This document shows positions 1-16,852 of a DNA stretch of 64,000 bases, piece by piece. A program made the translations under genes and the position numbers. Each line of letters opens with the position of its first letter. Positions within the stretch are counted from its first letter, which is position 1. Source of the DNA: a virus (taxonomy: Duplodnaviria; Caudoviricetes); the IMG/VR virus record IMGVR_UViG_3300030330_005258, positions 64,001 through 128,000 of that record. One strand, 5' to 3'. The notes beneath the pieces are model-generated. The model did no database searches. It had not been told where the DNA came from and saw only the letters and a list, made by a program, of their open reading frames with translations.

Positions 1-1
1 A

Positions 2-76
2 TTTAAAAGAACCAACGAAGACCAAATAATAGATGATGTATTGACATACTTAACAAACTTGGAGAAAGAACAATGA
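2..76 (+). CDS. 3' end of an upstream gene (partial, ...FKRTNEDQIIDDVLTYLTNLEKEQ*)
   Basis: Open frame from the window edge ending in TGA 74-76, overlapping the ATG at 73 (ATGA coupling, as elsewhere in the cluster). Confidence 0.55.
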   Translation, partial: FKRTNEDQIIDDVLTYLTNLEKEQ

Positions 77-813
77 GTAAGATAAGAATCAGTGTGTTGT
101 GTCCAACTAGAAAGAGAATGGCACTCATGAGAAGAGTTGCTGAAAAATGCTTTGAAACATGCCATAATCCAGAGCAAATTGAGCTTATTTTTGGTATAGA
201 TGACGACGACACTGAATCAATAGAAATGGCTCAGGCATTACAAAAAGAGCTAGCTCCGAATAACATAGAATACATTGTATGGCCAAGAAACAAGTTTATA
301 TTTTCTGATTTAATTAATCAATGCTCCAAGCCAGGGAAAGGAGAAATTTTTAATATTATGTCTGATGATGCTATACACAACTCTAAAGATTGGGATAAAA
401 TAGCATTAGAGATATTCGATAACCACCCAGACAAAATAATTTTATTACAGACAAGCGGCGGCGCTAACCAAAGCACAGGATTTCCATTTATGCATAGAAA
501 CTGGAGAGATGCAGCAGGCTACTTGCTGTCTCCAATTTTTGAGGGCGACTGGGGAGATTATTGGCTGACGGATGTTATAAGGGGTCTGCCAGGAAATAGA
601 TTTGTTTTTTCAACAGATATCGAAATCAGACATCTCCATGCCGAGTGGGGTCACATGGAAAAAGACGAAACGTATTATGAACATCTGAAAGAAAGGCAAG
701 CGCAAGAAGCGTTGCCAAGAGAGCAACACCCATATCATGGCATCGAGGGGACAAGACTTAAGAACTTGGAAATTCAAAAGTTAAACAATTTTATTAAAAA
801 CTATAACAAATAG
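73..813 (+). CDS. Glycosyltransferase, GT-A fold (GT2-like)
   Basis: N-terminal ISVLCPTRKR, ELIFGIDDDD, xDD motif (IMSDD), WGDYW and HLH near the C-terminus; GGAG SD upstream. Confidence 0.8.
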   Translation: MSKIRISVLCPTRKRMALMRRVAEKCFETCHNPEQIELIFGIDDDDTESIEMAQALQKELAPNNIEYIVWPRNKFIFSDLINQCSKPGKGEIFNIMSDDAIHNSKDWDKIALEIFDNHPDKIILLQTSGGANQSTGFPFMHRNWRDAAGYLLSPIFEGDWGDYWLTDVIRGLPGNRFVFSTDIEIRHLHAEWGHMEKDETYYEHLKERQAQEALPREQHPYHGIEGTRLKNLEIQKLNNFIKNYNK

Positions 814-825
814 GAATATGTAATA

Positions 826-1245
826 ATGCATGAAAAGAGAAAATATTTGCCCACTCTATCTGAATTGATTGATAGGCTTTCGATTGTACAACTAAAAGAG
901 GTCTTTATAACTGACCACAAGGAAGAATATGCAAAAGAAATTTCTGATATTTTGCATGATATTGAGTTGACAATTAAAGAAAACAATGTTACTTTAGATA
1001 GTGAGACAATAAGAGCAATAGTAGTATTATCTCAAATGAATCTGCATATCTGGCATAATGAATCTAACTACCGAAAAGGAATTAGAGACGGCAACAATCT
1101 TGAACTTACTCATGGACTGAATGGCATTAGAAATACTGCAAAGAATATAATTCAAGAAATTGTCGGCGGCAGAAAAGACTACAAGATAGATTGTCTCGCA
1201 GCAGAATTTAAAGACTGGGAAATAAGTTGGAGTCAAGATGAATAA
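826..1245 (+). CDS. Small helical protein of unknown function (paralogue of 6114..6527; DUF6165-like)
   Basis: LSELIDRLSIVQLKE...LSQMNLHIW...NGIRN...KNII; aligns by eye along its whole length with 6114..6527. Confidence 0.6.
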   Translation: MHEKRKYLPTLSELIDRLSIVQLKEVFITDHKEEYAKEISDILHDIELTIKENNVTLDSETIRAIVVLSQMNLHIWHNESNYRKGIRDGNNLELTHGLNGIRNTAKNIIQEIVGGRKDYKIDCLAAEFKDWEISWSQDE

Positions 1246-2200
1246 TAAAAAACTTTTAGTTTGTGGTGGCACCGGCTTTATGGGCAGAAATATAGCGAAT
1301 TATTTCAATTCGCTTGCTGGCTATGAAGTTCATATTACAGGCTACAAGAGACAAATTGCAGATTGGCCAGAGAGTCAATATCACCAGATCGATCTAACAT
1401 CACGACAAGATGTCAATCAACTATTTGAAAAAAACAACTTTGATGTTGTAATACAAGCAGCCGCAAATACCTCCGGCTCAAAGGATATCCTAGAGCGTCC
1501 ATACCTGCATGTAACAGATAATGCGATAATGAATTCAATAATTTTGCAAGCTTGTTATGATCATTTTGTTGGTCATTTTTTGTTCTTAAGTTGTGGAGTT
1601 ATGTATAATCCTGACAGGAGCCCAGTAACTGAACAAGATTTTTTTCTAGACGAGGGCATATATTCTAAATATTTTGGCGTCGGATGGACAAAGGTTTACG
1701 TTGAAAAGATGTGTGAGTTCTTTGCCGGGCTTGGCAGGACTAAGCACACCGCAATCAGACATAGTAACACTTACGGACCTCATGATAAGTATGATCTTGA
1801 GAAGTCTCACATGTTTGGTGCCACAATCACAAAAGTAATGAAGGCACAAGACGGTGAAGAGATAGTTGTATGGGGTGATGGTTCCACCGAGAGAGATTTA
1901 CTTTACGTTGATGACGTTGTTGATTTCATTCACAAAGCAATCGACAATCAAAAAAATCACTATGAACTTTATAATGTTGGATATGGAAAATCTTTTTCAG
2001 TAAAACAAATAGTTGAAAAAATAGTATCGATTTCTGGCAAAAATCTTTCAATAACTCATGATTTGACAAAGCCGAGTATTAACACGAAGTTGGCTTTGCT
2101 ATCAGATAAGGCGTTTAAAGAATTGGGCTGGGAGCCGAAGGTTTCAATTGATGATGGCATAGCCAAAACCATCGCGTGGTATAAAAACAATATAGGATAA
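1238..2200 (+). CDS. NAD(P)-dependent sugar epimerase/reductase (extended SDR, GDP-fucose-synthase-like), catalytic Tyr absent
   Basis: GGTGFMG Rossmann motif, RHSNTYGP, VWGDGS-RDLLYV, YNVG; the YxxxK position reads VGWTK. Confidence 0.85.
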   Translation: MNNKKLLVCGGTGFMGRNIANYFNSLAGYEVHITGYKRQIADWPESQYHQIDLTSRQDVNQLFEKNNFDVVIQAAANTSGSKDILERPYLHVTDNAIMNSIILQACYDHFVGHFLFLSCGVMYNPDRSPVTEQDFFLDEGIYSKYFGVGWTKVYVEKMCEFFAGLGRTKHTAIRHSNTYGPHDKYDLEKSHMFGATITKVMKAQDGEEIVVWGDGSTERDLLYVDDVVDFIHKAIDNQKNHYELYNVGYGKSFSVKQIVEKIVSISGKNLSITHDLTKPSINTKLALLSDKAFKELGWEPKVSIDDGIAKTIAWYKNNIG

Positions 2201-2203
2201 CAA

Positions 2204-2845
2204 ATGAATTTATATGTTCCAGAAACTTTCAAAGATCAAGAGGTAAGGCAAGTTCACCTAACGGAACAAGATCTTATAGATTTTGAATTAAGAGTTAAAG
2301 ATGAATATGAGAAGGCTACAATCACTGGTCCGGTGCATATGTCAAAAGGCAACGAAAAACAGTTGATAGAAATTTTCAAGTACATTCATCCCGACGATTG
2401 GGTTTTTTCGTCTTGGCGTAACCATTATCACTCTCTCCTACATGGCGTACCGGAAGAGCACCTATGGGAACTGATAACCGCCGGCAAAAGTATGAGTGTG
2501 TATTGTGGTGAGCCAAAATTGTACACGTCTTCTATAGTTGGTGGTATCATACCAATAGCACTTGGCGCCGCAAAGGCACTTAAGATGAAAAAAACAGGCA
2601 GAAAGGTTTGGGCTTTTGTTGGTGATATGACTGCTGAAACCGGCGGCTTTCATGAAGCCTATAAATATTCTCGTCGCCACAACCTTCCACTAGAATTTGT
2701 AATTGAAGATAACGATATGAGCACAAATACACCAACTAGTGAAACTTGGAATGGAGTTAAGAGCCACTTTCCTAAAGATGTTTTTTATTATTCTTACGAG
2801 AGAGGCTATCCACACCACGGCACCGGTCAGTGGGTTTTATTTTAG
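2204..2845 (+). CDS. ThDP-dependent E1 alpha-like subunit (short)
   Basis: GPVHMSKGNE, WRNHYH, SSIVGG, ThDP motif GD...EDN (GDMTAETG...IEDND). Confidence 0.85.
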   Translation: MNLYVPETFKDQEVRQVHLTEQDLIDFELRVKDEYEKATITGPVHMSKGNEKQLIEIFKYIHPDDWVFSSWRNHYHSLLHGVPEEHLWELITAGKSMSVYCGEPKLYTSSIVGGIIPIALGAAKALKMKKTGRKVWAFVGDMTAETGGFHEAYKYSRRHNLPLEFVIEDNDMSTNTPTSETWNGVKSHFPKDVFYYSYERGYPHHGTGQWVLF

Positions 2846-2853
2846 GAGCAAAG

Positions 2854-3387
2854 ATGAAGTATGTAGAACATTTGGTTAAGTCCATGGAATTCTTGGCAGA
2901 AGACCCAAGAACAATCTTTATTGGTCAATCTGTTGCTTATAGTGGCAACTCTATTTACAACACTCTAAAGACTATTCCAAATGACAGAAAGATCGAAACG
3001 CCTGTCTTTGAAGAAACTCAAATGGGATTGTCAATTGGTCTTGCCATGGAGGGTTATGTACCAGTGACATGCTACCCCCGTTTTGACTTTTTGCTATTGG
3101 CAGTTAATCAGCTTGTTAATCATTTAGATAAAATGGAAGAAATGACACGAGGAACTTTTAAGCCCCGTGTTATAGTTAGAACATCAATCGGCGCCAAGGT
3201 TCCCCTTAATGGTGGCGTGCAGCACACAAAAGATCACACAGAGGCATTTAGGCATTTGCTAGAAAATGTTGAAGTTGTTTTGCTAGAAAATAAAGAAGAC
3301 ATTTTTCCTGCTTACAAAAAAGCCCTAGAAAGAGAAGATAGTAAGCCAACACTCTTAGTAGAATATGGCGAATATTACAATCAATGA
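2854..3387 (+). CDS. ThDP-dependent E1 beta-like subunit, pyrimidine-binding domain only
   Basis: IFIGQSV, ETPVFE..QMGLSIGLAMEG, GVQH; AGGAG SD before ATG 2854 (preferred over the track start at 2830). Confidence 0.8.
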   Translation: MKYVEHLVKSMEFLAEDPRTIFIGQSVAYSGNSIYNTLKTIPNDRKIETPVFEETQMGLSIGLAMEGYVPVTCYPRFDFLLLAVNQLVNHLDKMEEMTRGTFKPRVIVRTSIGAKVPLNGGVQHTKDHTEAFRHLLENVEVVLLENKEDIFPAYKKALEREDSKPTLLVEYGEYYNQ

Positions 3388-4190
3388 TGCTAACCACTCC
3401 CGAAATACAAGAAAAAGCCGACGAACATCGCAAAAAGATACTCAAAGTAATCAACCGTGTAGGCAAGGGGCATGTTGGGGGAGCTTTCTCCTGTATTGAT
3501 ATATTGAGTGTTCTTTATTACAGTGGGATACTAAACATCACCCCAGAGAATATAAATGACCCCAACCGCAATAGGTTTCTATTAAGCAAGGGTCACGCCT
3601 GTATAGCTCAATATGTTATTTTAAATGACTTAGGCTTTTTTGATGATCAAGAGTTATTTAAAATGAATCAAGGTGGTATTTTGGGGGAACATCCAGATAC
3701 AAATATACCCGGCATAGAATTCATATCAGGCTCTCTTGGACATGGCTTAAGTGTTGCGCTGGGCTTCGCCCTTGCCGCCAAAATGAACAAACAAGATTAT
3801 TTAACATACGTTGTATTAGGTGATGGAGAGTGTGGCGAAGGTTCGGTATGGGAGGCTATTAGCATAGCACCCCACCTTAAATTATCTAATTTGGTAGCAA
3901 TCATAGATCGAAACAGACTGTGCATTCATGGGGATACTGAACAAATTCACCCACTTGACCCCCTAGATAAGAGACTTGAATCTTTCGGTTGGAATGTCAT
4001 GGAAATAGACGGACACAACTTTGGGGACCTTTACGTCTCATTGAATAACCTACACCCTTCTAAGCCCACGGCTATTATTGCAAACACAATAAAGGGCAAA
4101 GGCGTTAGTTTTATGGAAAACAAAAACACTTGGCACCATGGCGGCATAAGTGATGAAATACTTGATAAGGCATTGAGAGAAATACAATGA
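3384..4190 (+). CDS. Transketolase, N-terminal (ThDP-binding) subunit
   Basis: GHVGGAFS, RFLLSKGH, GSLGHG, GDGECGEGSVWEA, DRN, TIKGKG, WHH. Confidence 0.93.
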   Translation: MMLTTPEIQEKADEHRKKILKVINRVGKGHVGGAFSCIDILSVLYYSGILNITPENINDPNRNRFLLSKGHACIAQYVILNDLGFFDDQELFKMNQGGILGEHPDTNIPGIEFISGSLGHGLSVALGFALAAKMNKQDYLTYVVLGDGECGEGSVWEAISIAPHLKLSNLVAIIDRNRLCIHGDTEQIHPLDPLDKRLESFGWNVMEIDGHNFGDLYVSLNNLHPSKPTAIIANTIKGKGVSFMENKNTWHHGGISDEILDKALREIQ

Positions 4191-5125
4191 AAGACGATGT
4201 TATAGTTGATATGAGAGATGCGTTTTTTGATCAGCTATATCGGTATATCTCTATTGATAAAAATGTTGTAATCTTGACGGCAGACCACGGCGCCTTTGGC
4301 TTAAAAAAGATTGAGAATGATTACCCTGAACAATATCTCAATATTGGCATTGCAGAACAGGCACTTGTAAGCATCGCTGCTGGATTAGCCAAGTGCGGAA
4401 AAAAAGTATATATATATGCCATAAATAATTTTGTTTCATTAAGAGTTTTGGAGCAAATAAATATTGATTTGTGTGCGATGAATTTAGATGTCAATATCAT
4501 CGGTGTCGGCGCTGGCTTTACTTATAGCACAGATGGTCCTACTCACCAAGGTGTTCAAGATTTATCTGCTATGATAAACTTGCCAAACTTACAGGTCTAC
4601 AATGTTACTGATGACATTAATACCAAAAAGCTTGTAGAGCTTTCATACAATAACTCTGGTCCCAAATATTTTAGAATTGAAAAAGGAAAGCTCCCTAGGA
4701 TATATTCACCGGCAGACGACGTATCTGGTGGTCAAAAAGTTATAACCCCACAGGATAGTGATTATGTGATAATATCTTCTGGTTATATGACACAAAAGGT
4801 TAATAATGTTGTAAAATCTTTAAGCGAACAAAATATTCTTTTGAGACACATGGATCTGTTTAGGATAAGTCCACTACCAATAAGTGATATTGTGTCTTTC
4901 ACAAAAAATAAAAATGTTATTATTGTGGAGGACAATATTAAAAACGGAGGCATTGCAGAAAAAGTCTTTTGCTTATTAAAAGAGCACCAACATACTGGAA
5001 GAGTTTTGAGCATTTCATTAAAAAACAAATTTTATTTTGATTTTGGTGATAGGGATATGCTTCATAAGATCGCTAAGATAGATGAAGATTCGATAACTGA
5101 AAAAATAAAAAGTTTTATACATTGA
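4187..5125 (+). CDS. Transketolase, C-terminal subunit
   Basis: MRDAF, LTADHG, NIGIAEQ, DGPTHQ, YFRI, VEDN..GG. Confidence 0.92.
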   Translation: MKDDVIVDMRDAFFDQLYRYISIDKNVVILTADHGAFGLKKIENDYPEQYLNIGIAEQALVSIAAGLAKCGKKVYIYAINNFVSLRVLEQINIDLCAMNLDVNIIGVGAGFTYSTDGPTHQGVQDLSAMINLPNLQVYNVTDDINTKKLVELSYNNSGPKYFRIEKGKLPRIYSPADDVSGGQKVITPQDSDYVIISSGYMTQKVNNVVKSLSEQNILLRHMDLFRISPLPISDIVSFTKNKNVIIVEDNIKNGGIAEKVFCLLKEHQHTGRVLSISLKNKFYFDFGDRDMLHKIAKIDEDSITEKIKSFIH

Positions 5126-5133
5126 GGTAAATT

Positions 5134-6117
5134 ATGTATTTAGGAAAAAAAGTTTTAGTAGCTGGCGGCACTGGAACAATTGGCATCCCATTGGTTGAGA
5201 TGCTAGTTGAGAGAGGCGCCGTAGTGACCGTAGTTTCTATGGACTCAGAAGAATACGCCACAATGGTATTGCCACCAGAGGTAAGTTTTAAAAAAATGGA
5301 CCTGACCTCCACTGACAATTGTTTGCGAGCGACCCATGGGCAAGATTACGTGTTCAATCTTGTCGGAATAAAAGGCTCAGTTGGCATTGGGGAAACAAAA
5401 GTTGCAAGCTATTTTGTGCCGATGCTTAGGTTTCAAACAAATTTGATGGATGCGGCATTCCATTCAGAAGTATCAAGATATATGTTTGTCAGTAGTGTGT
5501 GCATCTACCCACAAGCATCCGAACATTTTGAAGATAATGCCTGGAATGGTATGCCAAAACAGAACGACCGGATCCCAGGATTGGCAAAGAGAATCGGAGA
5601 AATACAAGGAGAGACTTATTTGAAAGAGCACGGCTGGGACGCTGTACGAGTTGTTAGACCCAGCAATGTTTATGGTCCTTTTGATGACTTTAACCCCGCC
5701 ACTGCTCAAGTTATTCCATCTTTGATCTCCAGAACACTTTCTGGAGAAAGTCCCTTAAACGTCTGGGGGGATGGTTCTGCGATTAGAGATTTTGTATATT
5801 CGAGAGAAGTTGCGCATTGGTTGCTGGAGGCTTTAGAGCACGCGCCACCATGTGTCCCAATCAATCTAGGCTCGGGCAATCCATGCTCAATTAAGCAGGT
5901 TGCTGAAGTTATTTGTAATGTACAGCAGCCCCCTACACAAATTATATGGGACACCTCCAAGCCAGCAGGCGACCCAATTAGACTAATGAATATGGAAAGA
6001 GCACAAAAATATTTAAACTTTAAACAAATCTATCCTTTAGAGAAAGGGATAGAGGAGACAATTAAATGGATTGTGGATAATCCATATTTAGCTAAATTAA
6101 AAGGATTCAAAATATGA
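5134..6117 (+). CDS. NAD(P)-dependent sugar epimerase/reductase (extended SDR), catalytic Tyr absent
   Basis: AGGTGTIG, SSVCIYP, RPSNVYGP, WGDGS-RDF; YxxxK position reads PGLAK; close paralogue of 9497..10480. Confidence 0.85.
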   Translation: MYLGKKVLVAGGTGTIGIPLVEMLVERGAVVTVVSMDSEEYATMVLPPEVSFKKMDLTSTDNCLRATHGQDYVFNLVGIKGSVGIGETKVASYFVPMLRFQTNLMDAAFHSEVSRYMFVSSVCIYPQASEHFEDNAWNGMPKQNDRIPGLAKRIGEIQGETYLKEHGWDAVRVVRPSNVYGPFDDFNPATAQVIPSLISRTLSGESPLNVWGDGSAIRDFVYSREVAHWLLEALEHAPPCVPINLGSGNPCSIKQVAEVICNVQQPPTQIIWDTSKPAGDPIRLMNMERAQKYLNFKQIYPLEKGIEETIKWIVDNPYLAKLKGFKI

Positions 6118-6527
6118 GTTACAATAGAAAGTTTGTTTTACCGGCTGCTGAGTTAGTTGATAGAATATCAGTAGACCAAATTAAAGAAATGTTGTTTGAC
6201 GATAACAGCAGTATTACTCGTGAAATACAAGATATTTCAGATGATTTAGATCACATTATAAAAGAAAAAAATGTTGTTTTTAATGCTAGACTATTGAGGG
6301 TAATAGTGGCTCTGTCTCAAATTAATGTGCATATTTGGTATTTGAAAGATATGATGCAGGACAAGCCAGAGAAGTATGATGAATTGCTTAAACTAGCTCA
6401 CCAAATAAACGGTGTTAGAAATAGATTGAAAAATCTATTACTTGAAGAATTTGGAGATAAAGAAAAGAGTCTCCTCCGTAGCAATTTTGACACCGATGGT
6501 CTAAAGGGCTGGGAAGTTAGCCTGTGA
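6114..6527 (+). CDS. Small helical protein of unknown function (paralogue of 826..1245)
   Basis: AAELVDRISVDQIKE...LSQINVHIW...NGVRNRLKNLL...GWEVSL. Confidence 0.6.
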   Translation: MSYNRKFVLPAAELVDRISVDQIKEMLFDDNSSITREIQDISDDLDHIIKEKNVVFNARLLRVIVALSQINVHIWYLKDMMQDKPEKYDELLKLAHQINGVRNRLKNLLLEEFGDKEKSLLRSNFDTDGLKGWEVSL

Positions 6528-6528
6528 C

Positions 6529-7632
6529 ATGAGATACATTGAGCTACCGGCTTTTGATAATCGTATTTCAAGAATAGCTCTCGGAGTCAACAAAACCGGA
6601 AATAAAAAATCAGCAACCCCGGAAAAAGAATCGCGCCGTGTTTCTTTTTATCATGAAGCGATAGATTTGGGGATCAATTTTTTTGATACTGCTGAACTTT
6701 ATGGCGGCGGCTATTCGGAAGAGGTTTTAGGTAAAGCCCTTCAAGGTAGCTACAGGCACGATAATATAATATGCACCAAGTTTAATGCAAAAAACTCGTC
6801 AAAAGAAAAAATTCAAACATCTCTGGAGGGCAGCTTAAGAAGGTTAAATACCGAATACGTTGACTTGTATTTAGCTCATTGGCCAAACCCAAATGTACCA
6901 TTTGATGATTTATTAGAATCTTTGCAAAAATTCAAAAAGCAAGGAAAAGTAAGATCATTTGGACTTAGTAACGCAACACTTTCAGAAATAGAGAGGTTTT
7001 ATCTGTTAAATGATAGCCAGCCCTGCGTTATAGAAAACGAATATAACATAATCGACAGAAGTGTAGAGGACGGTATTTTACCCTTTGTGCAGCGTAGTGG
7101 GTGCTTATTCTTGTCTTATAGCCCATTGGCTCAAGGCATACCAATAACAAAAAATAAGCAAATTGATATGTTGTGTAACAAATACAGATGTACGATACAA
7201 CAATTATTTTTAGCTTGGATACATGATAGAAATGTTGTATCAATTGTTAGAACAATGAACAGCAGCCATTTACAAGACAATGTTTCGTCTTTAATGATTA
7301 AATTGGAAACTCATGAAAAGCAACTTCTACAAGATACATTTTCATTAAAAAAAATCAAAGTTAATATTGAATCGATCAATTTAGACAAAAGCCCATATGT
7401 ATCAGTTCAAGATGCAATTCAAAATTTTGAAGATTTGATTCCAAGCCCCTCGATGCTGGCGAATAGAATAGATAGAGGTTATAATTTTTCTCCTCTGCGC
7501 CTTATAAAAAATGGCAATCGATACGATATTTTGAATGGATTTGGCATGTCTGAAATTAAAAAGATTTGGGCTTGGAAAATTTCAAGACCATATGATAACA
7601 AAATGGAGGCTTATATATACAATGATTTATAA
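6529..7632 (+). CDS. Aldo/keto reductase with degenerate C-terminal ParB/Srx-like domain
   Basis: FDTAELYGGG.SE, CTKF, DLYLAHWP, GKVRSFGLSN, YSPLAQG; about 95 extra C-terminal residues (PLRL...RYDILNG...WAW). Confidence 0.85.
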   Translation: MRYIELPAFDNRISRIALGVNKTGNKKSATPEKESRRVSFYHEAIDLGINFFDTAELYGGGYSEEVLGKALQGSYRHDNIICTKFNAKNSSKEKIQTSLEGSLRRLNTEYVDLYLAHWPNPNVPFDDLLESLQKFKKQGKVRSFGLSNATLSEIERFYLLNDSQPCVIENEYNIIDRSVEDGILPFVQRSGCLFLSYSPLAQGIPITKNKQIDMLCNKYRCTIQQLFLAWIHDRNVVSIVRTMNSSHLQDNVSSLMIKLETHEKQLLQDTFSLKKIKVNIESINLDKSPYVSVQDAIQNFEDLIPSPSMLANRIDRGYNFSPLRLIKNGNRYDILNGFGMSEIKKIWAWKISRPYDNKMEAYIYNDL

Positions 7633-8737
7633 AACAATAGGAACAGACAGGGTATCAGCGATTGGATTTGGAACCGGGTTCACTGCCCCTGAAAATAGAA
7701 ATTGTGACACCCTGCAACAAACAATACACAACTCTATTGATTTGGGTGTGAATTTCATAGATACAGCACCAGTATACGGTAATGGAGTTTCGGAAACGAT
7801 GCTTGGTCAAGTTTTAAAAAACATAGGCAGAGAAAAGGTGTTTCTTGCCTCCAAGGTGTCACCAGAAGATACGAGCTACAAAGGTGTGATAAGCTCAGCC
7901 GAACAAAGTTTGAAAAGATTACAAACAGAAACCATTGACCTTTTTCAAATACACTGGCCAAGCGTAAATATACCACTGTCAGAAACAGCAGAAGCAATGG
8001 AAAAACTGGTTTCAGATGGAAAGATTAGATACATTGGCGTTAGTAATTTTCAAATGCACGAGATAGTTGAGACAAAGAATAGTCTAAAGCAGAACTCTCT
8101 TGCCTCTATACAATCAGAATATAATTTTTTTGAGAGATCCATGGAAGACAAAGTTTTACCTTTTTGTAAAAAAAATGATATGATGCTAATAGCCTATAGC
8201 CCACTAGCACAAGGTAATTTGGCAAACGGTAAACAACAAAAGACAATATTAACCCAAATGGCACAAAAATATGGTGCAACAACCGGGCAACTTGTGTTAA
8301 GATGGCTTATAGAAAATGATAATGTTTTGGTTATACCAAATACCTCTAAACCCCATCGTGCGATAGAGAATGCAAAAGCCGCAAACTTTACAATTTCTAA
8401 GGAAGATTTCATGATACTATCTGAAAATCTTAAAACTTTACAGCAATTAATTGATGTGAAAGATGTTAGAGTCTCCAATGACTACAGCAGAAAAGTATAT
8501 CAAACAATTGAAGAGGCAAAAGAAAATAAAATGAATCTTTCTCCGTCTCCAATTGAATTATCTGAGGAAATGAAGAAGGGGAACTTTTTAAAACCGATAA
8601 GACTAAAAGAATTGGAGAAGCCTATAGATGGCAAGCGATATGATTTAGTTGAAGGAAGATTGCGTTACTGGGCTTGGACTATAGCCCATGGATATGATAA
8701 GCCAATCCCGGCTTTAGTTTGGAAAACAAGGAGTTAA
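7622..8737 (+). CDS. Aldo/keto reductase with C-terminal ParB/Srx-like domain
   Basis: IDTAPVYGNG.SE, ASKV, FQIHWP, GKIRYIGVSN, YSPLAQG; tail KPIRL...RYDLVEGRLRYWAW...IPALV; GGAGG SD supports the ATG at 7622. Confidence 0.88.
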   Translation: MIYKTIGTDRVSAIGFGTGFTAPENRNCDTLQQTIHNSIDLGVNFIDTAPVYGNGVSETMLGQVLKNIGREKVFLASKVSPEDTSYKGVISSAEQSLKRLQTETIDLFQIHWPSVNIPLSETAEAMEKLVSDGKIRYIGVSNFQMHEIVETKNSLKQNSLASIQSEYNFFERSMEDKVLPFCKKNDMMLIAYSPLAQGNLANGKQQKTILTQMAQKYGATTGQLVLRWLIENDNVLVIPNTSKPHRAIENAKAANFTISKEDFMILSENLKTLQQLIDVKDVRVSNDYSRKVYQTIEEAKENKMNLSPSPIELSEEMKKGNFLKPIRLKELEKPIDGKRYDLVEGRLRYWAWTIAHGYDKPIPALVWKTRS

Positions 8738-8738
8738 A

Positions 8739-9494
8739 ATGACAGACAAGAAAGCAATCATCACTTACGATGATCAAAAAGAAAGAGATGCTCGAAATGA
8801 ATTATATGAATTATTGAAGGAGTGTCCAATACCAGAGGACCAAGTTTTATCAAATTTGGGTCTTTTTTTGAATTCTAAAAACTTATCTAGAATTCTTTTT
8901 ATGAATTACATATATCAAAAAATTGTTGATGTCCAAGGGGTCGTTTTTGAATTTGGAACGCGCTGGGGACAAAATGTGGCGCTCTTTGCAGCGTTGCGCG
9001 GTATCTATGAGCCCTTTAACAGACACAGAAAGATAGTGGCTTTTGATACTTTTGAAGGGTTTCCTTCAATTCATGAGAAGGATGGAGACTCATCTATGAT
9101 GGTGGAGGGTATGCTTAGCTTGACTGAAAATTATGATCAATATTTGTCTAGCGTTGTTTCAACAATTGAAAAAGACAACCCATTGTCTCATATACAAAAA
9201 TTCGAACTTAGAAAGGGAGACGGAATAGTCGAGATTGATTCATATCTTGAACAGAATCCCGAAACAATTATCTCATTAGCTTACTTCGATTTTGATCTAT
9301 ATGCGCCCACCAAGAAGTGCCTAGAAGCCATAAAGCCTCGCTTGACTAAGGGCAGCGTCGTATGCTTTGATGAACTTAATGATCCTGATTCTCCCGGAGA
9401 GACCTTGGCACTGATGGAAGTTTTCGGTCTCGAAAATGTTACGCTCAAGAGATTTCCATATGTCTCTAGAATATCATATTTTATAGTGGAGTAG
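8739..9494 (+). CDS. TylF/MycF/NovP-family SAM-dependent sugar O-methyltransferase
   Basis: GVVFEFGTRWG, FDTFEGFP, YFDFDLY.PT, GSVVCFDE. Confidence 0.8.
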   Translation: MTDKKAIITYDDQKERDARNELYELLKECPIPEDQVLSNLGLFLNSKNLSRILFMNYIYQKIVDVQGVVFEFGTRWGQNVALFAALRGIYEPFNRHRKIVAFDTFEGFPSIHEKDGDSSMMVEGMLSLTENYDQYLSSVVSTIEKDNPLSHIQKFELRKGDGIVEIDSYLEQNPETIISLAYFDFDLYAPTKKCLEAIKPRLTKGSVVCFDELNDPDSPGETLALMEVFGLENVTLKRFPYVSRISYFIVE

Positions 9495-9496
9495 AA

Positions 9497-10480
9497 ATGA
9501 TTAATGATTTGAATAACGCAAAGGTGCTTGTTACCGGAGGCACCGGTATGATTGGTAGGTATTTGGTAGACAAACTTCTTGCAAGAGGCTGCGAAGTAAC
9601 TGTTGTATCCCTCGATGACCCCGAGGGCTTGCCAGAGCCTGTAAAGTTTATGAAACTGGACTTAACAATTCTGGATAACTGCCTTAAGGCGTGCGAGGGA
9701 CAAGACTACGTTTTTAATTTAATTGGCATCAAGGGATCTCCAAAAATGTCTAGAGAGCGACCTGCCAGTTTTATGGTCCCCATGCTAATGTTTAACACAG
9801 CCATGATGGAAGCTGCCATGCGCAGTAACGTGAAATGGTATCTATACACTAGCTCTGTTGGAGTCTATCATCCTGCTGAAGTGTTCAAAGAGGATGATGT
9901 GTGGAAGACTTTTCCGTCTGACAACGACAAGCACCCCGGCTGGGCAAAGAGAATTGGAGAACTTCAGGCTGATGCATATCGTATACAATACGGTAGAAAC
10001 AATATATCAATTGTTAGACCAGCTAACGTATATGGCAAGTGGGACAACTTTGATCCAGAGAATGCCATGGTTATACCATCACTTATAAACAGAATAGTGT
10101 CAGGAGAATCTCCTCTTGTATGTTGGGGCGATGGAAAGCCAATTAGAGATTTCATTTATGCTGGTGATTGCGCCGATGGTATGATTCACATGGTTGAAAA
10201 TGGAGTGACAGATCCTGTAAATTTGGGTAGTGGTGACGGAGTATCAATTAAAGAAGTTGCAGAAGCTATCAGAGATTGTTATAATAAAGATATAGAGATT
10301 GAATGGGATATTACCAAGCCCAAAGGGGACGCCCGCCGCCTAATGGATACTACAAGAGCAGAGTCAAATGGTTTTGTCTGTAGTACACACCTAGTTGACG
10401 GCATTAGAGAAACGCTCCAATGGTTCTTGGAAAATAGAGATCTCTACAAGAAAAGAAACAATTACTTTGTAAAGGACTGA
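9497..10480 (+). CDS. NAD(P)-dependent sugar epimerase/reductase (extended SDR), catalytic Tyr absent
   Basis: TGGTGMIG, RPANVYG, WGDG.PIRDFIY, NLGSG; YxxxK position reads PGWAK. Confidence 0.85.
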   Translation: MINDLNNAKVLVTGGTGMIGRYLVDKLLARGCEVTVVSLDDPEGLPEPVKFMKLDLTILDNCLKACEGQDYVFNLIGIKGSPKMSRERPASFMVPMLMFNTAMMEAAMRSNVKWYLYTSSVGVYHPAEVFKEDDVWKTFPSDNDKHPGWAKRIGELQADAYRIQYGRNNISIVRPANVYGKWDNFDPENAMVIPSLINRIVSGESPLVCWGDGKPIRDFIYAGDCADGMIHMVENGVTDPVNLGSGDGVSIKEVAEAIRDCYNKDIEIEWDITKPKGDARRLMDTTRAESNGFVCSTHLVDGIRETLQWFLENRDLYKKRNNYFVKD

Positions 10481-10481
10481 C

Positions 10482-10994
10482 ATGATAATAAAAGACACTA
10501 AGTTGCAGGGAGTAAAACTTATAATCCCTGATAGATTTGAAGACCATCGAGGATCTTACATGGAGCTTTATGATTCAAAAAATTTTGAATCAATTACGAG
10601 TGAGTGTTTTATTCAAGATGATATTTCAATTTCAAACAAGGGTGTCTTGAGGGGGCTTCATGGCGATTGGAGAACTACAAAAATAGTCACAGTTATAAAC
10701 GGCTCGGGCTATGCGCTGATAGCAGATAACCGCCCATCCTCGCCCACCTATAAACAATGGCAGTCCTTTACCCTCAGTAAGCAAAATAAGCAAATGCTTC
10801 TGCTTCCTGCCGGCATTGGCAATTCAATATTAGCTCTTGAAGATAATATGATTTATTATTACAAGCAAAATACACATTTTGTAGATGGGCAACAATTTAC
10901 AATAAAGTGGGACAGCCCCGAGTGGGACTTTTGGTGGCCAATCAAAGAGCCAATTTTGTCCATGAGAGACCAGAGAGGCGATTATGTCAAATAA
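10482..10994 (+). CDS. rmlC: dTDP-4-dehydrorhamnose 3,5-epimerase family (RmlC-like cupin)
   Basis: FEDHRG, QDDISIS..GVLRGLH, DNRPSSPTY.QW, W..PIKEPILS.RD. Confidence 0.85.
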   Translation: MIIKDTKLQGVKLIIPDRFEDHRGSYMELYDSKNFESITSECFIQDDISISNKGVLRGLHGDWRTTKIVTVINGSGYALIADNRPSSPTYKQWQSFTLSKQNKQMLLLPAGIGNSILALEDNMIYYYKQNTHFVDGQQFTIKWDSPEWDFWWPIKEPILSMRDQRGDYVK

Positions 10995-11997
10995 AAATTG
11001 TATTATTACGGGCATAACAGGCATGGTTGGCTCTCATTTGGCTGACTACTTGCTTGAAAATACAGATTGGGAAGTTCATGGCTTGACCCGATGGAATGAC
11101 AGGATGGACAATATTGAGCACCTGATGCAGCGGATAAACAAGAAGGATAGAATCCATCTACAGTATGGTGATATAAATGATTTAAGCTCAATGTTGGCTG
11201 TGTTTGATAGAGTCAAACCAGATTATGTTTTTCACTTAGCAGCACAGAGCTATCCAAAGACAAGCTTTGAGTCGCCTCTAGAAACTCTTGAGACAAATAT
11301 ACTTGGAACTGCTAAAGTTTTAGATGCCATAAAGACTCTTAGTTTGGAACCGGTAATTCATGTCTGTGCTTCATCTGAAGTATTTGGCAGAGTGCCAAAA
11401 GAGTTTCTACCAATACACGAAGATGTACAATTTCATCCAGCCTCACCCTATGCTATTTCAAAAGTTGGAACAGATCTTATTGGCAGGTTTTACGCCGAGG
11501 CGTATGGATTAAAAGTTATGACAACTCGCATGTTCACACACACTGGTCCACGCAGGGGCGACGTCTTTGCGGAGTCTACATTTGCTAAACAAATAGCTAT
11601 GATAGAAGCAGGACTACAGGAGCCAACCATAAAGGTTGGTAACCTTGACTCTTTGAGAACGTGGTCAGATGTTAGAGATGCCGTTCGCGCTTACCACATG
11701 TTGGTGACAAACAATCCAATCGCCGGAGAATATTATAACATTGGAGGCACGTTTAGTTGTACAGTTAGGGAAATGTTAGAATATTTGATTTCTCTTTCTA
11801 CTGTTAAAAATATATCAATTGAAACTGACCCCGATAGGTTACGACCAATTGATGCCGACTTGCAGGTACCAGATACTTCAAAGTTCAAAAATCATACAGG
11901 GTGGGAGCCGGAAATCTCATTTGAAAAAACAATGCAAGATTTACTTAACTACTGGCGTGATAATGTCAACAACGGCAGAAGGTTCTTAAGTAGATGA
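10984..11997 (+). CDS. gmd: GDP-mannose 4,6-dehydratase family
   Basis: ITGITGMVGSHL, HLAAQS, SSEVFG, intact PYAISK, GNLDSLR.WSDVRD, RLRPID. Confidence 0.85.
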   Translation: MSNKNCIITGITGMVGSHLADYLLENTDWEVHGLTRWNDRMDNIEHLMQRINKKDRIHLQYGDINDLSSMLAVFDRVKPDYVFHLAAQSYPKTSFESPLETLETNILGTAKVLDAIKTLSLEPVIHVCASSEVFGRVPKEFLPIHEDVQFHPASPYAISKVGTDLIGRFYAEAYGLKVMTTRMFTHTGPRRGDVFAESTFAKQIAMIEAGLQEPTIKVGNLDSLRTWSDVRDAVRAYHMLVTNNPIAGEYYNIGGTFSCTVREMLEYLISLSTVKNISIETDPDRLRPIDADLQVPDTSKFKNHTGWEPEISFEKTMQDLLNYWRDNVNNGRRFLSR

Positions 11998-12725
11998 GTA
12001 TTTTAGTAATAGGGGAAAGTTGTAACGATATTTTTCATTATGGTGTTTGTAATAGGCTTTGTCCAGAAGCCCCCGTACCAGTTTTCAATTCCTCCAAGGT
12101 AGTAAATAACGGTGGCATGGCAATGAATGTTTATAGTAATTTGTTATCTTTAGGATCTAATGTACAAATCCACACTAACTCAAATTGGAAAAACATAACA
12201 AAAACACGATTTGTTGATAGAAGAACAAATCACATGTTTATGAGACTAGACGAACGCGATGATGAATATGGAAAAATAAATTTAAAAGATCTTGAATTAA
12301 AAAATTATGATGCAGTGATAGTATCTGATTACAATAAAGGATTTATGTCCGAGAGTGATATAAGTTATATTTCTAAAAATTCAAAGTTAAGTTTTCTAGA
12401 TACTAAAAAGAAGCTTGGCTCTTGGTGTGATGATTTTTCATTTATAAAAATAAATCATCTAGAATATGAAAGAACAAAAAACACAATTACTGATAAGGTG
12501 TTAAAAAAGTTGATAGTAACGCGAGGACCTCGCGGCTGTGTCTACAAAGGCAAGACTTACGGTGTCGAGTTGGTAGAGGTTAAAGACACTTCTGGCGCTG
12601 GCGATACTTTTATAGCAGCACTTTGCTTTAAATATTGCCTTACAGGCGACATAGACAAATCAATACAGTTTGCCAATCAATGCTCAACCACAGTTGTGCA
12701 AAAGATGGGAGTTGTTACAATATGA
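11994..12725 (+). CDS. PfkB-family sugar-phosphate kinase (HldE/RfaE domain I-like)
   Basis: RLCPEAPVPV, GGMAMNV, KTRF, VSDYNKG, KIN..E, DTSGAGDTF. Confidence 0.88.
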   Translation: MSILVIGESCNDIFHYGVCNRLCPEAPVPVFNSSKVVNNGGMAMNVYSNLLSLGSNVQIHTNSNWKNITKTRFVDRRTNHMFMRLDERDDEYGKINLKDLELKNYDAVIVSDYNKGFMSESDISYISKNSKLSFLDTKKKLGSWCDDFSFIKINHLEYERTKNTITDKVLKKLIVTRGPRGCVYKGKTYGVELVEVKDTSGAGDTFIAALCFKYCLTGDIDKSIQFANQCSTTVVQKMGVVTI

Positions 12726-13114
12726 AAATAGTTTGGACAAACGGTTGTTTTGATGTCCTTCATCGCGGACACATAGAATTATTCAAATATGCCAAATCTC
12801 TTGGAGATTATTTGGTTGTTGGTATTGACACCGATGAAAGAGTTAAGGCTGCCAAAGGCGACACGCGCCCGTTTAACACTATAGAAGACAGGGTTGCGAT
12901 GCTTGAGTCAATTAAATACATTGATGAAATAAGAGTGTTTGACCACGATGATGAACTGGATACACAGGTTCTTTTAAGTCGCGCCGAAACAATGGTAGTG
13001 GGCTCTGACTATAAAGATAGGCAAGTAATTGGTTCCAGACATGTGCGAGAGGTAAAATTTTTTGATAGGATAGACGGGTACTCAACAACTAAAATTTTAG
13101 TGGGATTGCAATGA
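12722..13114 (+). CDS. Nucleotidyltransferase (HldE/RfaE domain II-like cytidylyltransferase fold)
   Basis: TNGCFDVLHRGH, VGIDTD..V...KG..RP, GSDY, GYSTT; ATGA overlap supports the start at 12722. Confidence 0.88.
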   Translation: MKIVWTNGCFDVLHRGHIELFKYAKSLGDYLVVGIDTDERVKAAKGDTRPFNTIEDRVAMLESIKYIDEIRVFDHDDELDTQVLLSRAETMVVGSDYKDRQVIGSRHVREVKFFDRIDGYSTTKILVGLQ

Positions 13115-13437
13115 CTTATGTTTTTGATATAGACGGAACCATATGTTCCAAAACAGACGGAGACTATACACAAGCAAAACCTTTTCATGATAGAATCAAG
13201 AAAGTGAATCGCCTTTATGATGAAGGGCACATGATTATCTTCTTAACCGCAAGAGGAATGGGAAGACATAATAATAATTTTCTTAATGCACAGAGGGACT
13301 TTTATGACTTCACTCTAGCGCAGTTAAAGCATTGGGGTGCGAAACACCACCAACTGTTTCTAGGTAAGCCATCCGGCGACTATTACATTGATGATAAGGG
13401 AATAAATGATGAAGACTTCTTCAACACAGGAAATTAA
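13111..13437 (+). CDS. HAD-superfamily phosphatase (capsule-biosynthesis type)
   Basis: FDIDGTIC, TARG, GKP..DYYIDDK. Confidence 0.85.
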   Translation: MTYVFDIDGTICSKTDGDYTQAKPFHDRIKKVNRLYDEGHMIIFLTARGMGRHNNNFLNAQRDFYDFTLAQLKHWGAKHHQLFLGKPSGDYYIDDKGINDEDFFNTGN

Positions 13438-13774
13438 ATTTGTACCCAAAGGCTGGGGCTTTGAAAAGTGGATTGTCAATAATGAAGAATATTGTGGCAA
13501 GCTGCTTTACTTTGTGAAAGGAAAAAGGTGTTCATGGCATTATCACAAATTAAAAGATGAAGTATTTTATGTCCAATCAGGAAAAATACAAGTTTTTTAT
13601 GGCGAAGGCGACAATATACTAGATAGTAATGTCGTGGTATTAGAAAAAGGCGATAACTTTCATGTATATCGCGGATTAAGACACCAAATGTTAGCGCTTG
13701 AAGACACAGAACTATTTGAGTTTTCAACTCAACATTTTGACAGTGACAGTTACAGAATTCAAAAAGGAGATTGA
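13406..13774 (+). CDS. Cupin, sugar isomerase-like (mannose-6-P / lyxose isomerase-like)
   Basis: VPKGWGFE.W, SWHYH..KDE.FYV..G, H.M.A.ED..LFEFST. Confidence 0.75.
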   Translation: MMKTSSTQEIKFVPKGWGFEKWIVNNEEYCGKLLYFVKGKRCSWHYHKLKDEVFYVQSGKIQVFYGEGDNILDSNVVVLEKGDNFHVYRGLRHQMLALEDTELFEFSTQHFDSDSYRIQKGD

Positions 13775-13775
13775 C

Positions 13776-13997
13776 ATGAGTAACGGAACGTTTAAATTAT
13801 CAAATCAGGCACTTGGGGCTGTAATGATGGCTCTACAGGAGTCACTACTAAATGAATTGGACATTGTTCCAATCTTAAAGGGCTTTGAGCTTGCACAGGG
13901 CGAAGATGGTTTGGTTGTGACAAACCCACCAACCGTCCGCGTCAGCAACAACAAGCCAATCACAGAACAAGACTTAAAGACGATGGCGGGCGAGTAG
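13776..13997 (+). CDS. Hypothetical phage protein
   Basis: AAGGAG SD before ATG 13776; abuts the next gene. Confidence 0.7.
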   Translation: MSNGTFKLSNQALGAVMMALQESLLNELDIVPILKGFELAQGEDGLVVTNPPTVRVSNNKPITEQDLKTMAGE

Positions 13998-16838: not shown

Positions 16839-16852
16839 TTTAAGGAACAACA

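What the first reader, a model, noticed from the sequence alone, without database searches (positions are those of the whole stretch)
826..8737. Mirrored double module: DUF-SDR-(E1a/E1b) | (TK-N/TK-C)-SDR-DUF followed by two AKR-ParB enzymes
Seen: gene order is symmetric. Small protein 826, Tyr-less SDR 1238 and ThDP pair 2204/2854 are followed by ThDP pair 3384/4187, Tyr-less SDR 5134, paralogous small protein 6114, and then two paralogous AKRs. Each component occurs twice in this span. Inference: two parallel or sequential machines (ThDP C2-transferase + SDR substrate holder + helical adaptor + ketone reductase), one using pyruvate (acetyl) and one a ketose donor (glycolaldehyde). That could give two rounds of chain extension on one NDP-sugar. 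I know of no description of this stoichiometric unit.
Basis: partly seen in the sequence, partly recalled or inferred. Interest (0 to 1): 0.8.

Follow-up and report, generated by a model that had tools for sequence, protein, structure and literature searches.

The report
Phage copy of branched-sugar pathway
A marine T4-like phage carries a compact copy of a widespread but unstudied bacterial pathway that probably adds two-carbon units to an activated heptose; the mirror-image gene order is a local rearrangement, not a functional unit.

Summary
The gene order is as described: small protein, Tyr-less SDR and E1-like pair, then split-transketolase pair, Tyr-less SDR and small protein, then two AKRs. 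Paralogy, loss of the catalytic Tyr and the ParB-like AKR tails were all confirmed.

The mirror is not a recurring unit. Among 160 viral and 38 bacterial or archaeal loci, only the window's two closest relatives share it. The 11 genes from E1a to RmlC are colinear with a cassette found in many phyla. The phage swapped SDR1 and the 4,6-dehydratase between the ends, lost the B12 radical-SAM genes and gained a virus-only small protein (sm1) in front.

The parts assort independently:
- 12 of 45 sm1 loci with full flanks have no ThDP gene.
- 55 of 80 viral split-transketolase loci have no small protein.

One coupling is strict. Bacterial-type sm2 lies directly after SDR2 in 34 of 36 genomic loci and is fused to it in three.

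Best reading: one pathway with two ThDP-dependent carbon-carbon steps on an NDP-heptose. Its chemistry resembles known acetyl- and hydroxyacetyl-branching enzymes. The scan has flagged this module before on other DNA (candidate-phyla bacteria, Elusimicrobia). No biochemical study of it was found.

The parts
73..813 (+). Glycosyltransferase-like protein, the last of a run of GT genes that continues upstream of the window
   Evidence: phrog_14945 glycosyltransferase, E 4.5e-20. Upstream in L003: GT4 x2, GT2, PseB-like, carbamoyltransferase and GT10-like genes.
826..1245 (+). sm1: 139-aa four-helix protein of a virus-only clade
   Evidence: No Pfam family above threshold. AF2 model pLDDT 90, four helices, no convincing PDB match. 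80-88% identical in 80 viral contigs whose neighbouring genes vary. Virus-only clade with aLRT 100.
1238..2200 (+). SDR1: GDP-fucose-synthase-like extended SDR lacking the catalytic Tyr (VGWTK)
   Evidence: Pfam Epimerase 1.6e-41. NCBIfam Fcl 140.6 bits against a cut-off of 500. Alignment to 7ll6 puts Val at the Tyr position.
2204..2845 (+). E1-alpha-like ThDP (PP-domain) subunit, truncated to 213 aa
   Evidence: Pfam E1_dh 4.6e-17. phrog_34187 N-terminal half, 1.9e-46. 38-43% identical to the fused form in cyanophages P-TIM68 and S-SM2.
2854..3387 (+). E1-beta-like pyrimidine-binding subunit without the C-terminal domain
   Evidence: Pfam Transket_pyr only, 2.1e-12. phrog_34187 C-terminal half, 5.2e-34.
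3384..4190 (+). Split transketolase, N-terminal (ThDP-binding) subunit
   Evidence: Pfam Transketolase_N 2.9e-40. GDG...DRN motif visible in the translation. 43-54% identical to genes at the same position in bacterial cassettes.
4187..5125 (+). Split transketolase, pyrimidine-binding plus C-terminal subunit
   Evidence: Pfam Transket_pyr 1.8e-25 and Transketolase_C 1.9e-12.
5134..6117 (+). SDR2: Tyr-less GMER-like SDR with the conserved motif NDRxPGxAKR; partner of sm2
   Evidence: Pfam Epimerase 5.4e-39. Pro at the Tyr position. The Tyr is absent in all 20 orthologues aligned. 51-69% identical to the bacterial and archaeal orthologues.
6114..6527 (+). sm2: 137-aa four-helix protein of the bacterial type, translationally coupled to SDR2
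   Evidence: ATGA overlap with SDR2. Nests among bacterial sequences in the tree. Directly after SDR2 in 34 of 36 genomic loci and fused to it in three.
6529..7632 (+). AKR1: aldo-keto reductase with a degenerate ParB-like tail (no GxxR)
   Evidence: Pfam Aldo_ket_red 5e-56. Tail aligns to the AKR2 tail. The same degenerate type ('KKYWAW') recurs in bacterial cassettes.
7622..8737 (+). AKR2: aldo-keto reductase with an intact ParB/sulfiredoxin-like C-terminal domain (EGRLRYWAW)
   Evidence: Pfam Aldo_ket_red 3.3e-62. Family profile of the tail finds Noc/ParB/Spo0J first. Foldseek ParB/Noc/KorB, E 1.6e-4, probability 1.0.
8739..9494 (+). TylF-like methyltransferase, the most conserved gene of the cassette
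   Evidence: Weak Pfam TylF and Methyltransf_24 hits. The copy next to the AKRs is 62-71% identical to the bacterial genes at the same position.
9497..10480 (+). SDR3: third Tyr-less GMER-like SDR (PGWAK)
   Evidence: Pfam Epimerase 5.3e-45. Alignment to 8du0 puts Pro at the Tyr position.
10482..10994 (+). RmlC-like 3,5-epimerase
   Evidence: Pfam dTDP_sugar_isom 3.1e-42. TIGR01221 at 130 bits, below its cut-off of 155.75.
10984..11997 (+). GMD-like NDP-sugar 4,6-dehydratase
   Evidence: Pfam GDP_Man_Dehyd 4.5e-80. TIGR01472 at 195.8 bits, below its cut-off. Mostly 50-69% identical to the bacterial cassette gene.
11994..13774 (+). NDP-heptose supply genes: HldE-domain-I-like kinase (11994-12725), HldE-domain-II-like nucleotidyltransferase (12635-13114), HAD phosphatase (13111-13437), cupin (13406-13774)
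   Evidence: The cupin's homologues in P-TIM68 and S-SM2 are annotated as phosphoheptose isomerase.

Best explanation
Bases 826-8737 are the front part of one operon (73-13774) in the hypervariable glycan island of an uncultured marine T4-like phage. The operon is a compacted copy of a conserved nucleotide-sugar tailoring cassette found in many bacterial phyla and at least one archaeal genome bin.

Proposed route (only the gene families are shown; every chemical step is inferred):
1. The cupin, HldE-like kinase, HAD phosphatase and nucleotidyltransferase make an NDP-heptose.
2. The GMD-like dehydratase and the RmlC-like epimerase give a 4-keto-6-deoxy intermediate.
3. The minimal E1-alpha/beta enzyme (donor probably pyruvate, acetyl unit) and the split transketolase (donor probably a ketose or hydroxypyruvate, hydroxyacetyl unit) each form one carbon-carbon bond on a keto carbon of the sugar.
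4. The two AKRs reduce the new side-chain ketones, and their ParB-like tails grip the nucleotide handle.
5. The three Tyr-less GMER-like SDRs epimerise or reduce ring positions. SDR2 works as a complex with sm2.
6. The TylF-like enzyme O-methylates the product.
7. The upstream glycosyltransferases place it on a phage or host surface target.

The mirror symmetry is incidental. The 11 genes E1a-E1b-TKN-TKC-SDR2-sm2-AKR-AKR-MT-SDR3-RmlC are colinear with the bacterial cassette. In this phage lineage SDR1 and the dehydratase have swapped ends, the B12 radical-SAM genes are gone, and a virus-specific paralogue (sm1) lies in front.
For: Phage context:
- Terminase, gp25 and baseplate wedge genes lie downstream, and the record is a 154.6-kb viral contig.
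- Hypervariable glycan islands next to tail genes are described for marine T4-like phages (PMC7029224).

Conserved cassette:
- 38 genome loci were found through sm2. They come from Geobacter, Pirellulales, Dehalococcoidia, Acidobacteriota, Heliobacterium mobile, Verrucomicrobiota, Omnitrophota, Elusimicrobiota, Saccharibacteria and Woesearchaeota.
- Their usual order is DH46-[E1a-E1b]-TKN-TKC-(MT/rSAM)-SDR2-sm2-AKR-AKR-MT-SDR3-RmlC-SDR1.
- Identity to the phage proteins is typically 62-71% for MT, 51-69% for SDR2 and 50-69% for DH46.

Two ThDP pairs are the rule there, either E1 plus TK or TK plus TK. The AKR pair with one intact and one degenerate ParB tail is also ancestral.

SDR2-sm2 coupling:
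- 34 of 36 genomic loci have them adjacent, mostly with 8-11 nt overlaps, and three have them fused.
- In viral TK loci, sm2 appears only directly after an SDR2 orthologue.
- An sm-sm-methyltransferase fusion occupies the same slot in another contig.

Origin of the mirror:
- sm1 is a virus-only clade on a long stem, while sm2 nests among bacterial sequences.
- L125 and L127 carry sm1-SDR1-E1a-E1b-TKN-TKC but no SDR2-sm2-AKR-AKR-MT.
- L129 and L161 carry the right half of the mirror (SDR2-sm2-AKR-MT) but no sm1.

Chemistry precedent: E1-type enzymes add acetyl branches to keto sugars, and split transketolases are proposed to add hydroxyacetyl branches in miharamycin and amipurimycin (PMC12247030).
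Against: - No product, substrate or activity is known for any protein of the cassette. Donor and acceptor assignments rest on analogy.
- The nucleotide carrier is uncertain. The phage has an HldE-like (ADP-type) transferase, whereas the one bacterial locus examined for this (L091) carries glucose-1-phosphate nucleotidyltransferase-family genes, so the base sugar may differ between hosts.
- All three SDRs lack the canonical Tyr, so their chemistry cannot be read from homology.
- The phage E1 pair is only 27-38% identical to the bacterial E1 pairs but 40-97% identical to other phage E1 pairs. Part of the operon may therefore have a separate, phage-internal origin.
- The loci were found through sm or TK and are related to one another, so the counts are not independent events.
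Confidence: 0.6

Rival explanations
1. One reading: two parallel or sequential four-part machines (ThDP enzyme, SDR holder, helical adaptor, reductase), one per half of the mirror, each adding one C2 unit.
For: - Every component is present twice in 826-8737.
- The helical protein is physically tied to an SDR in the SDR2-sm2 case.
- Bacterial cassettes usually have two ThDP pairs and often two AKRs.
- sm1 overlaps SDR1 by 8 nt.
Against: - Most bacterial cassettes have one small protein for two ThDP pairs, and SDR1 is not next to the E1 pair there.
- sm1 occurs without any ThDP gene in 12 of 45 loci with full flanks.
- In 80 loci, sm1 is next to an SDR1 orthologue only in the window's near relatives.
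- Split TK occurs without any small protein in 55 of 80 viral loci.
- Cyanophage E1 fusions have no small protein nearby.
- Some loci have two ThDP pairs but only one AKR (L098, L108, L114, L115, L121).
Confidence: 0.1
2. sm1 is not a pathway enzyme or adaptor. It is a conserved phage gene, regulatory or structural, that marks the edge of the variable island and serves as a recombination anchor for cassette exchange. Only sm2 is a true pathway component.
For: - sm1 is 80-88% identical across contigs whose neighbours fall into more than 15 unrelated families on each side.
- It forms a virus-only clade on a long branch.
- It has no constant neighbour.
Against: - sm1 keeps the residues that are invariant or nearly invariant across the family (R5, D16, K24, D45, N72, W76, H96, N99, N107).
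- 43 of 45 full-flank loci contain a ThDP gene or a GMER-like SDR within 10 kb.
- sm1 lies inside the operon with overlapping stop and start codons.
Confidence: 0.2
3. The two ThDP enzymes do not branch the sugar ring. They extend the chain at an aldehyde, for example at C6 or C7 after oxidation, to give an octose, nonose or higher sugar.
For: - Transketolases normally add C2 units to aldehydes (established enzymology).
- A heptose supply module is present.
- Two AKRs could reduce the resulting 2-keto groups.
Against: - A 4,6-dehydratase and a 3,5-epimerase are conserved core genes. They generate a ring ketone, which is the acceptor used by all characterised sugar-modifying ThDP enzymes (PMC12247030).
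- No dedicated C6 or C7 oxidase was identified, although the Tyr-less SDRs are of unknown function.
Confidence: 0.1

Closest known systems
E1-type (alpha-KADH2) sugar-branching ThDP enzymes of antibiotic pathways (aldgamycin enzyme, KbDH-alpha/beta of kibdelomycin)
   Same: A two-subunit E1-alpha/beta-like enzyme with no E2 or E3, encoded in a deoxysugar pathway. These enzymes use pyruvate to put an acetyl C2 branch on a keto sugar, and the branch ketone is often reduced afterwards (PMC12247030).
   Different: The phage subunits are much shorter (213 and 177 aa, no beta C-terminal domain). The context is a surface-glycan or phage island, not an actinomycete antibiotic cluster. Sequence relationship to those enzymes was not tested because no reference sequence was at hand.
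Split-gene transketolases proposed for miharamycin and amipurimycin
   Same: N- and C-terminal transketolase halves encoded as two genes inside a sugar pathway, proposed to transfer a hydroxyacetyl unit to a keto sugar (PMC12247030).
   Different: Those act on nucleoside-antibiotic core sugars and have not been shown in vitro either. Here the pair lies in a widespread glycan cassette beside a second ThDP enzyme.
YerE/YerF of the yersiniose A pathway
   Same: The same logic: NDP-4-keto-deoxysugar, then a ThDP-dependent C2 branch, then reduction of the branch ketone (PMC12247030).
   Different: YerE is a single-chain decarboxylase-type (acetolactate-synthase-like) enzyme. The window's enzymes are of the E1 and transketolase types, and the reductases are AKR-ParB fusions rather than a YerF-type enzyme.
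Host recognition cluster (hypervariable island) of pelagimyophages and cyanomyophages
   Same: A large non-syntenic island next to tail and baseplate genes of marine T4-like phages, rich in glycosyltransferases and LPS-type sugar genes including rfaE (PMC7029224).
   Different: That paper mentions no transketolase (0 occurrences), and the passages read describe no ThDP, AKR-ParB or small-protein components. This phage's terminase is only 43-44% identical to the nearest cultured phages (Flavobacterium and Microcystis phages).
GDP-L-fucose synthase (GMER/Fcl)
   Same: Best structural and profile matches for SDR1-3. Rossmann motif and catalytic Lys are kept.
   Different: The catalytic Tyr is replaced (Val or Pro). 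His179 is lost in SDR2 and Cys109 in SDR1, read from the alignments. NCBIfam scores of 138-160 are far below the cut-off of 500.

Membership tests
E1-type (alpha-KADH2) ThDP carboligase | Separate PP-domain (alpha) and Pyr-domain (beta) subunits | tested here: met
   Pfam E1_dh 62.4 bits (cut-off 22) and Transket_pyr 47.5 bits (cut-off 27).
E1-type (alpha-KADH2) ThDP carboligase | Uses pyruvate to acetylate a keto sugar | not testable with these tools
   Needs an enzyme assay. Only the operon context with a 4,6-dehydratase supports it.
Pyruvate dehydrogenase E1 (true PDH) | Full-length alpha and beta subunits reaching the equivalog scores, with E2 and E3 partners | tested here: not met
   TIGR03182 at 89 bits against a cut-off of 394. 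PRK09212 at 55 bits against 321. The beta C-terminal domain is absent. No E2, E3 or lipoyl gene was found among the ORFs annotated in the operon and its flanks.
Transketolase (split-gene form) | Transketolase_N, Transket_pyr and Transketolase_C domains on two polypeptides | tested here: met
   138.7, 90 and 47.6 bits, all above the Pfam cut-offs.
Transketolase (central-metabolism enzyme) | Reaches the NCBIfam equivalog score; binds sugar phosphates | tested here: not met
   Best model PRK05899.2-5 gives 254.7 and 149.6 bits for the two halves, against a cut-off of 488. Phosphate-binding residues were not examined here.
GDP-L-fucose synthase / classical extended SDR | Catalytic Tyr of YxxxK | tested here: not met
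   Val (SDR1), Pro (SDR2) and Pro (SDR3) at the Tyr position. Absent in all 20 SDR2 orthologues aligned.
GDP-L-fucose synthase / classical extended SDR | Rossmann GxxGxxG motif and catalytic Lys | tested here: met
   GGTGFMG, GGTGTIG and GGTGMIG, with the Lys aligned.
Aldo-keto reductase | Pfam Aldo_ket_red above the gathering score, and the D-Y-K-H tetrad | tested here: met
   190.4 and 210.6 bits against a cut-off of 24. The tetrad motifs DTA..Y, K and HWP can be read in both translations.
ParB/sulfiredoxin N-terminal domain (AKR2 tail) | ParB fold with a GxxR nucleotide-binding motif | tested here: met
   Foldseek finds ParB/Noc/KorB, E 1.6e-4, probability 1.0, TM 0.57-0.64. The EGRLRYWA motif aligns to GerR of Noc. 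Pfam ParB_N itself gives only 15.3 bits against a cut-off of 26.3, so membership rests on fold and motif.
ParB/sulfiredoxin N-terminal domain (AKR1 tail) | GxxR motif | tested here: not met
   The AKR1 tail aligns to the AKR2 tail but reads NGFGMSEIKKIWAW, with no GxxR. No Pfam hit.
Any curated family for the small protein (DUF7164, DUF4254, DUF6165) | Score above the family threshold | tested here: not met
   DUF7164 at 20.5 bits and DUF4254 at 17.3 bits, both against a cut-off of 27. No NCBIfam or PHROG hit. DUF6165 appears only on 20% of one Atlas cluster.

The most novel reading that the evidence does not exclude
SDR2-sm2 is an obligate two-part enzyme of a new kind. A four-helix protein with no known relatives completes, or gates, the active site of an SDR that has lost its catalytic tyrosine. 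The cassette around it makes a heptose carrying two different ThDP-installed C2 units. Abundant marine phages use this sugar to decorate their virions or remodel the host surface.
Probability: 0.25. Interest if true: 0.7.

Novelty: new variant of a known kind. Interest (0 to 1): 0.45.

Why it matters
ThDP-dependent carbon branching of sugars is known from a few O-antigens and antibiotics. This cassette would be a widespread variant that combines two ThDP enzyme classes, three tyrosine-less SDRs, AKR-ParB fusions and an orphan helical partner.

It occurs in many bacterial phyla, including candidate-phyla bacteria, and in at least one archaeal genome bin. The small protein is very common in marine viral metagenomes: more than 8000 proteins matched in one search.

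Working out the product would:
- define a new rare sugar and new carboligase biocatalysts;
- explain a large share of the 'LPS-like' genes in marine phage variable islands.

For this finding specifically, the main result is negative. The mirror order should not be treated as a functional unit. The SDR2-sm2 pair is the real unit to test.

Tried and rejected
- Complex prediction for SDR2 (A4) with sm2 (A5) was unavailable and nothing was folded.
- The 'atlas' fold library was not installed.

Searches that found nothing:
- Megablast of bases 1-20000 and tblastn of sm1 against GenBank phages gave no match.
- A single-protein scan of viral contigs with TK-N found nothing. An alignment was needed.
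- Alignment A2 was too diverse for a genome scan. A narrower sm2-type alignment worked.

Fold of the small protein:
- Foldseek against the PDB gave nothing with E <= 0.001.
- The exhaustive VIA search gave a best Z of 7.9, within the range expected for generic helical bundles.
- The family profile against PDB sequences gave only chance-level hits. A dimeric dUTPase at E 0.25 was considered as an all-alpha NTPase lead and dropped.

Literature:
- Searches for phage ThDP sugar branching, transketolase chain extension, AKR-ParB fusions and virion heptosylation returned nothing specific.

Ideas rejected:
- That the small protein tracks the ThDP enzymes.
- That the duplication of every component arose within the phage. 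SDR1-3, the AKR pair and the two ThDP pairs all have counterparts in the bacterial cassettes.

Full report
**What is there**

The window is bases 64001-128000 of a 154.6-kb viral contig. Terminase, gp25 and baseplate-wedge genes, together with giant ORFs of 2143 and 2955 aa, lie downstream on the same strand. The terminase is at most 43-44% identical to cultured phages, the nearest being Flavobacterium and Microcystis T4-like phages.

Bases 73-13774 form one tightly packed operon with 4-11 nt overlaps or 1-8 nt gaps. Upstream of the window the island continues with GT4, GT2 and GT10-like glycosyltransferases, a PseB-like dehydratase and a carbamoyltransferase. This position and content fit the hypervariable 'host recognition cluster' described for marine T4-like phages (PMC7029224).

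**Check of the observation**

- sm1, SDR1, E1a/E1b
- TK-N/TK-C, SDR2, sm2
- AKR1, AKR2

All family assignments hold. The pairs are true paralogues.

Aligned to GDP-fucose synthase structures, the catalytic Tyr is Val in SDR1 and Pro in SDR2. The downstream SDR3 also has Pro. The Lys and the Rossmann motif are kept in all three.

The AKR2 tail is a ParB/sulfiredoxin-type domain by profile (Noc, ParB and Spo0J are the top hits) and by fold (Foldseek E 1.6e-4, probability 1.0). The AKR1 tail is a degenerate copy without GxxR.

The small proteins are confident four-helix bundles (pLDDT 90). They have no curated family and no convincing structural relative.

**Is the mirror a unit?**

(a) From sm1. 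471 viral contigs carry it, and the best 80 are 80-88% identical. Their neighbours are highly variable.
- Only L004 and L020, the closest relatives, repeat the window's order.
- Of 45 loci with full 10-kb flanks, 33 have a ThDP gene, 12 have none, and 2 have neither a ThDP gene nor a GMER-like SDR.
- Only 4 of the 45 have a transketolase pair, and 2 have AKRs or sm2.

(b) From sm2. A scan of one genome per species found 38 loci in many phyla. They share a conserved order: DH46-[E1a-E1b]-TKN-TKC-(methyltransferase and B12 radical SAM)-SDR2-sm2-AKR-AKR-MT-SDR3-RmlC-SDR1.
- Most have a single small protein. Four have a tandem pair.
- SDR1 lies at the far end, not beside the E1 pair.

(c) From the transketolase. 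Of 80 viral loci, 55 have no small protein. sm2 appears only directly after an SDR2 orthologue, in L124, L126, L129, L134 and L161.

Cyanophages P-TIM68 and S-SM2 carry a fused E1a/b next to heptose genes and a Zn-dependent alcohol dehydrogenase, with no small protein.

The components therefore assort combinatorially, and the mirror is confined to one small lineage.

**How the mirror arose**

The 11 genes from E1a to the RmlC-like gene are colinear between phage and bacteria. Relative to the bacterial order, the phage has:
- SDR1 and the 4,6-dehydratase swapped between the two ends;
- no radical-SAM genes;
- sm1 placed in front.

In a tree of the family, sm1 is a virus-only clade (34 rows, aLRT 100, long stem). 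The window's sm2 nests among bacterial sequences (aLRT 93 and 97). The second copies of tandem pairs form a third clade (quick tree with few columns, so only these well-supported splits are used).

The left and right halves also occur separately. L125 and L127 have sm1-SDR1-E1a-E1b-TKN-TKC without SDR2-sm2-AKR-AKR-MT. L129 and L161 have the right half (SDR2-sm2-AKR-MT) without sm1. With three kinds of unit present twice, about 1 order in 15 is palindromic by chance.

**What is really coupled**

sm2 follows SDR2 directly in 34 of 36 genomic loci, usually with an 8-11 nt overlap. The two are one open reading frame in L088 (Pirellulales, 468 aa), L095 (Woesearchaeota, 483 aa) and L117 (Saccharibacteria, 394 aa).

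Another contig has an sm-sm-methyltransferase fusion in the same slot, between an SDR and an AKR.

The SDR2 orthologues all lack the Tyr and share an invariant NDRxPGxAKR segment. The small-protein family has conserved polar residues: R5, D16, K24, D45, N72, W76, H96, N99 and N107.

The partner is SDR2 specifically, not the ThDP enzymes.

The AKR pair, with one intact and one degenerate ParB tail, is also ancestral to the cassette.

**Most likely mechanism (inferred)**

1. An NDP-heptose is made by the HldE-like kinase and transferase, the HAD phosphatase and the cupin.
2. It is converted to a 4-keto-6-deoxy sugar by the GMD-like dehydratase and the RmlC-like epimerase.
3. Two ThDP enzymes of different classes each add a C2 unit to a keto carbon.
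4. The AKRs reduce the new ketones, with the ParB tails holding the nucleotide.
5. The SDRs adjust ring stereochemistry or oxidation state.
6. The TylF-like enzyme methylates the product.

Precedents are the E1-type acetyl-branching enzymes of aldgamycin and kibdelomycin, the split transketolases proposed for miharamycin and amipurimycin, and YerE/YerF (PMC12247030). Chain extension at an aldehyde, rather than ring branching, cannot be excluded.

**Comparison and novelty**

The chemistry is a variant of known ThDP-dependent sugar branching. The particular cassette, the AKR-ParB fusions, the Tyr-less SDR trio and the SDR2-sm2 pair appear uncharacterised in the literature I could search.

Earlier agents of this scan described the same module on other DNA: candidate-phyla bacteria, Elusimicrobia, and the small protein beside an Fcl-like SDR. 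The module is therefore not new to the scan. I used those notes as leads only.

**Verdict**

The 'mirrored double machine' interpretation is largely not supported. The underlying pathway is real, widespread and worth biochemical study, and SDR2-sm2 is the best-defined testable unit.

Noticed in passing
window 826-1245 and loci L004-L083: sm1 stays 80-88% identical across viral contigs whose flanking genes belong to more than 15 unrelated families on each side. It looks like a conserved anchor at the edge of the variable sugar block, possibly a recombination site for cassette exchange.
   Followed up: partly
L091:5146-7065, L091:7001-8977, L111:9488-11368: Bacterial versions of the cassette carry a TK-C subunit fused to a methyltransferase domain, and one or two B12-binding radical-SAM enzymes of about 630-660 aa. 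The phage has lost both.
   Followed up: partly
L084 (P-TIM68) 7970-10194; L085 (S-SM2) 7987-10209: Cultured cyanophages encode the E1a/b enzyme as one fused protein of about 380-400 aa (phrog_34187, function unknown). It sits next to a Zn-dependent alcohol dehydrogenase and heptose-activation genes, and is annotated only as 'transketolase central region-containing protein'.
   Followed up: partly
window 13406-13774: A 122-aa cupin always travels with the HldE-like kinase, the transferase and the HAD phosphatase. Its homologues in cyanophage records are annotated as phosphoheptose isomerase, although the canonical GmhA is a SIS-fold protein. It may be a non-homologous isomerase.
   Followed up: no
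window 11994-13114: The HldE-like kinase and nucleotidyltransferase are separate ORFs. As listed they overlap by about 90 nt, because the lister starts the transferase at a TTG at 12635. The true start of the transferase is probably later.
   Followed up: no
window 17878-24309 and 27921-36788: Two giant ORFs of 2143 and 2955 aa lie around the gp25 and baseplate-wedge genes. The 2143-aa ORF has no Pfam match; the 2955-aa ORF was not searched. They are likely tail-fibre or VrlC-like structural proteins next to the glycan island.
   Followed up: no
L003:8255-9583 and L003:10266-10955 (upstream of the window): A PIN-PhoH fusion protein, and a 229-aa protein with a weak sub-threshold hit to the anthrax lethal factor N/C domain family (22 bits against a cut-off of 27.4). 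The second is probably a metalloprotease-like fold.
   Followed up: no
L134 (548-kb viral contig): One very large 'viral' contig carries all three clades of the small protein (sm1-type, sm2-type and a tandem second copy) together with both ThDP pairs. It is either a megaphage with the full bacterial-type cassette or a mis-binned cellular contig.
   Followed up: no
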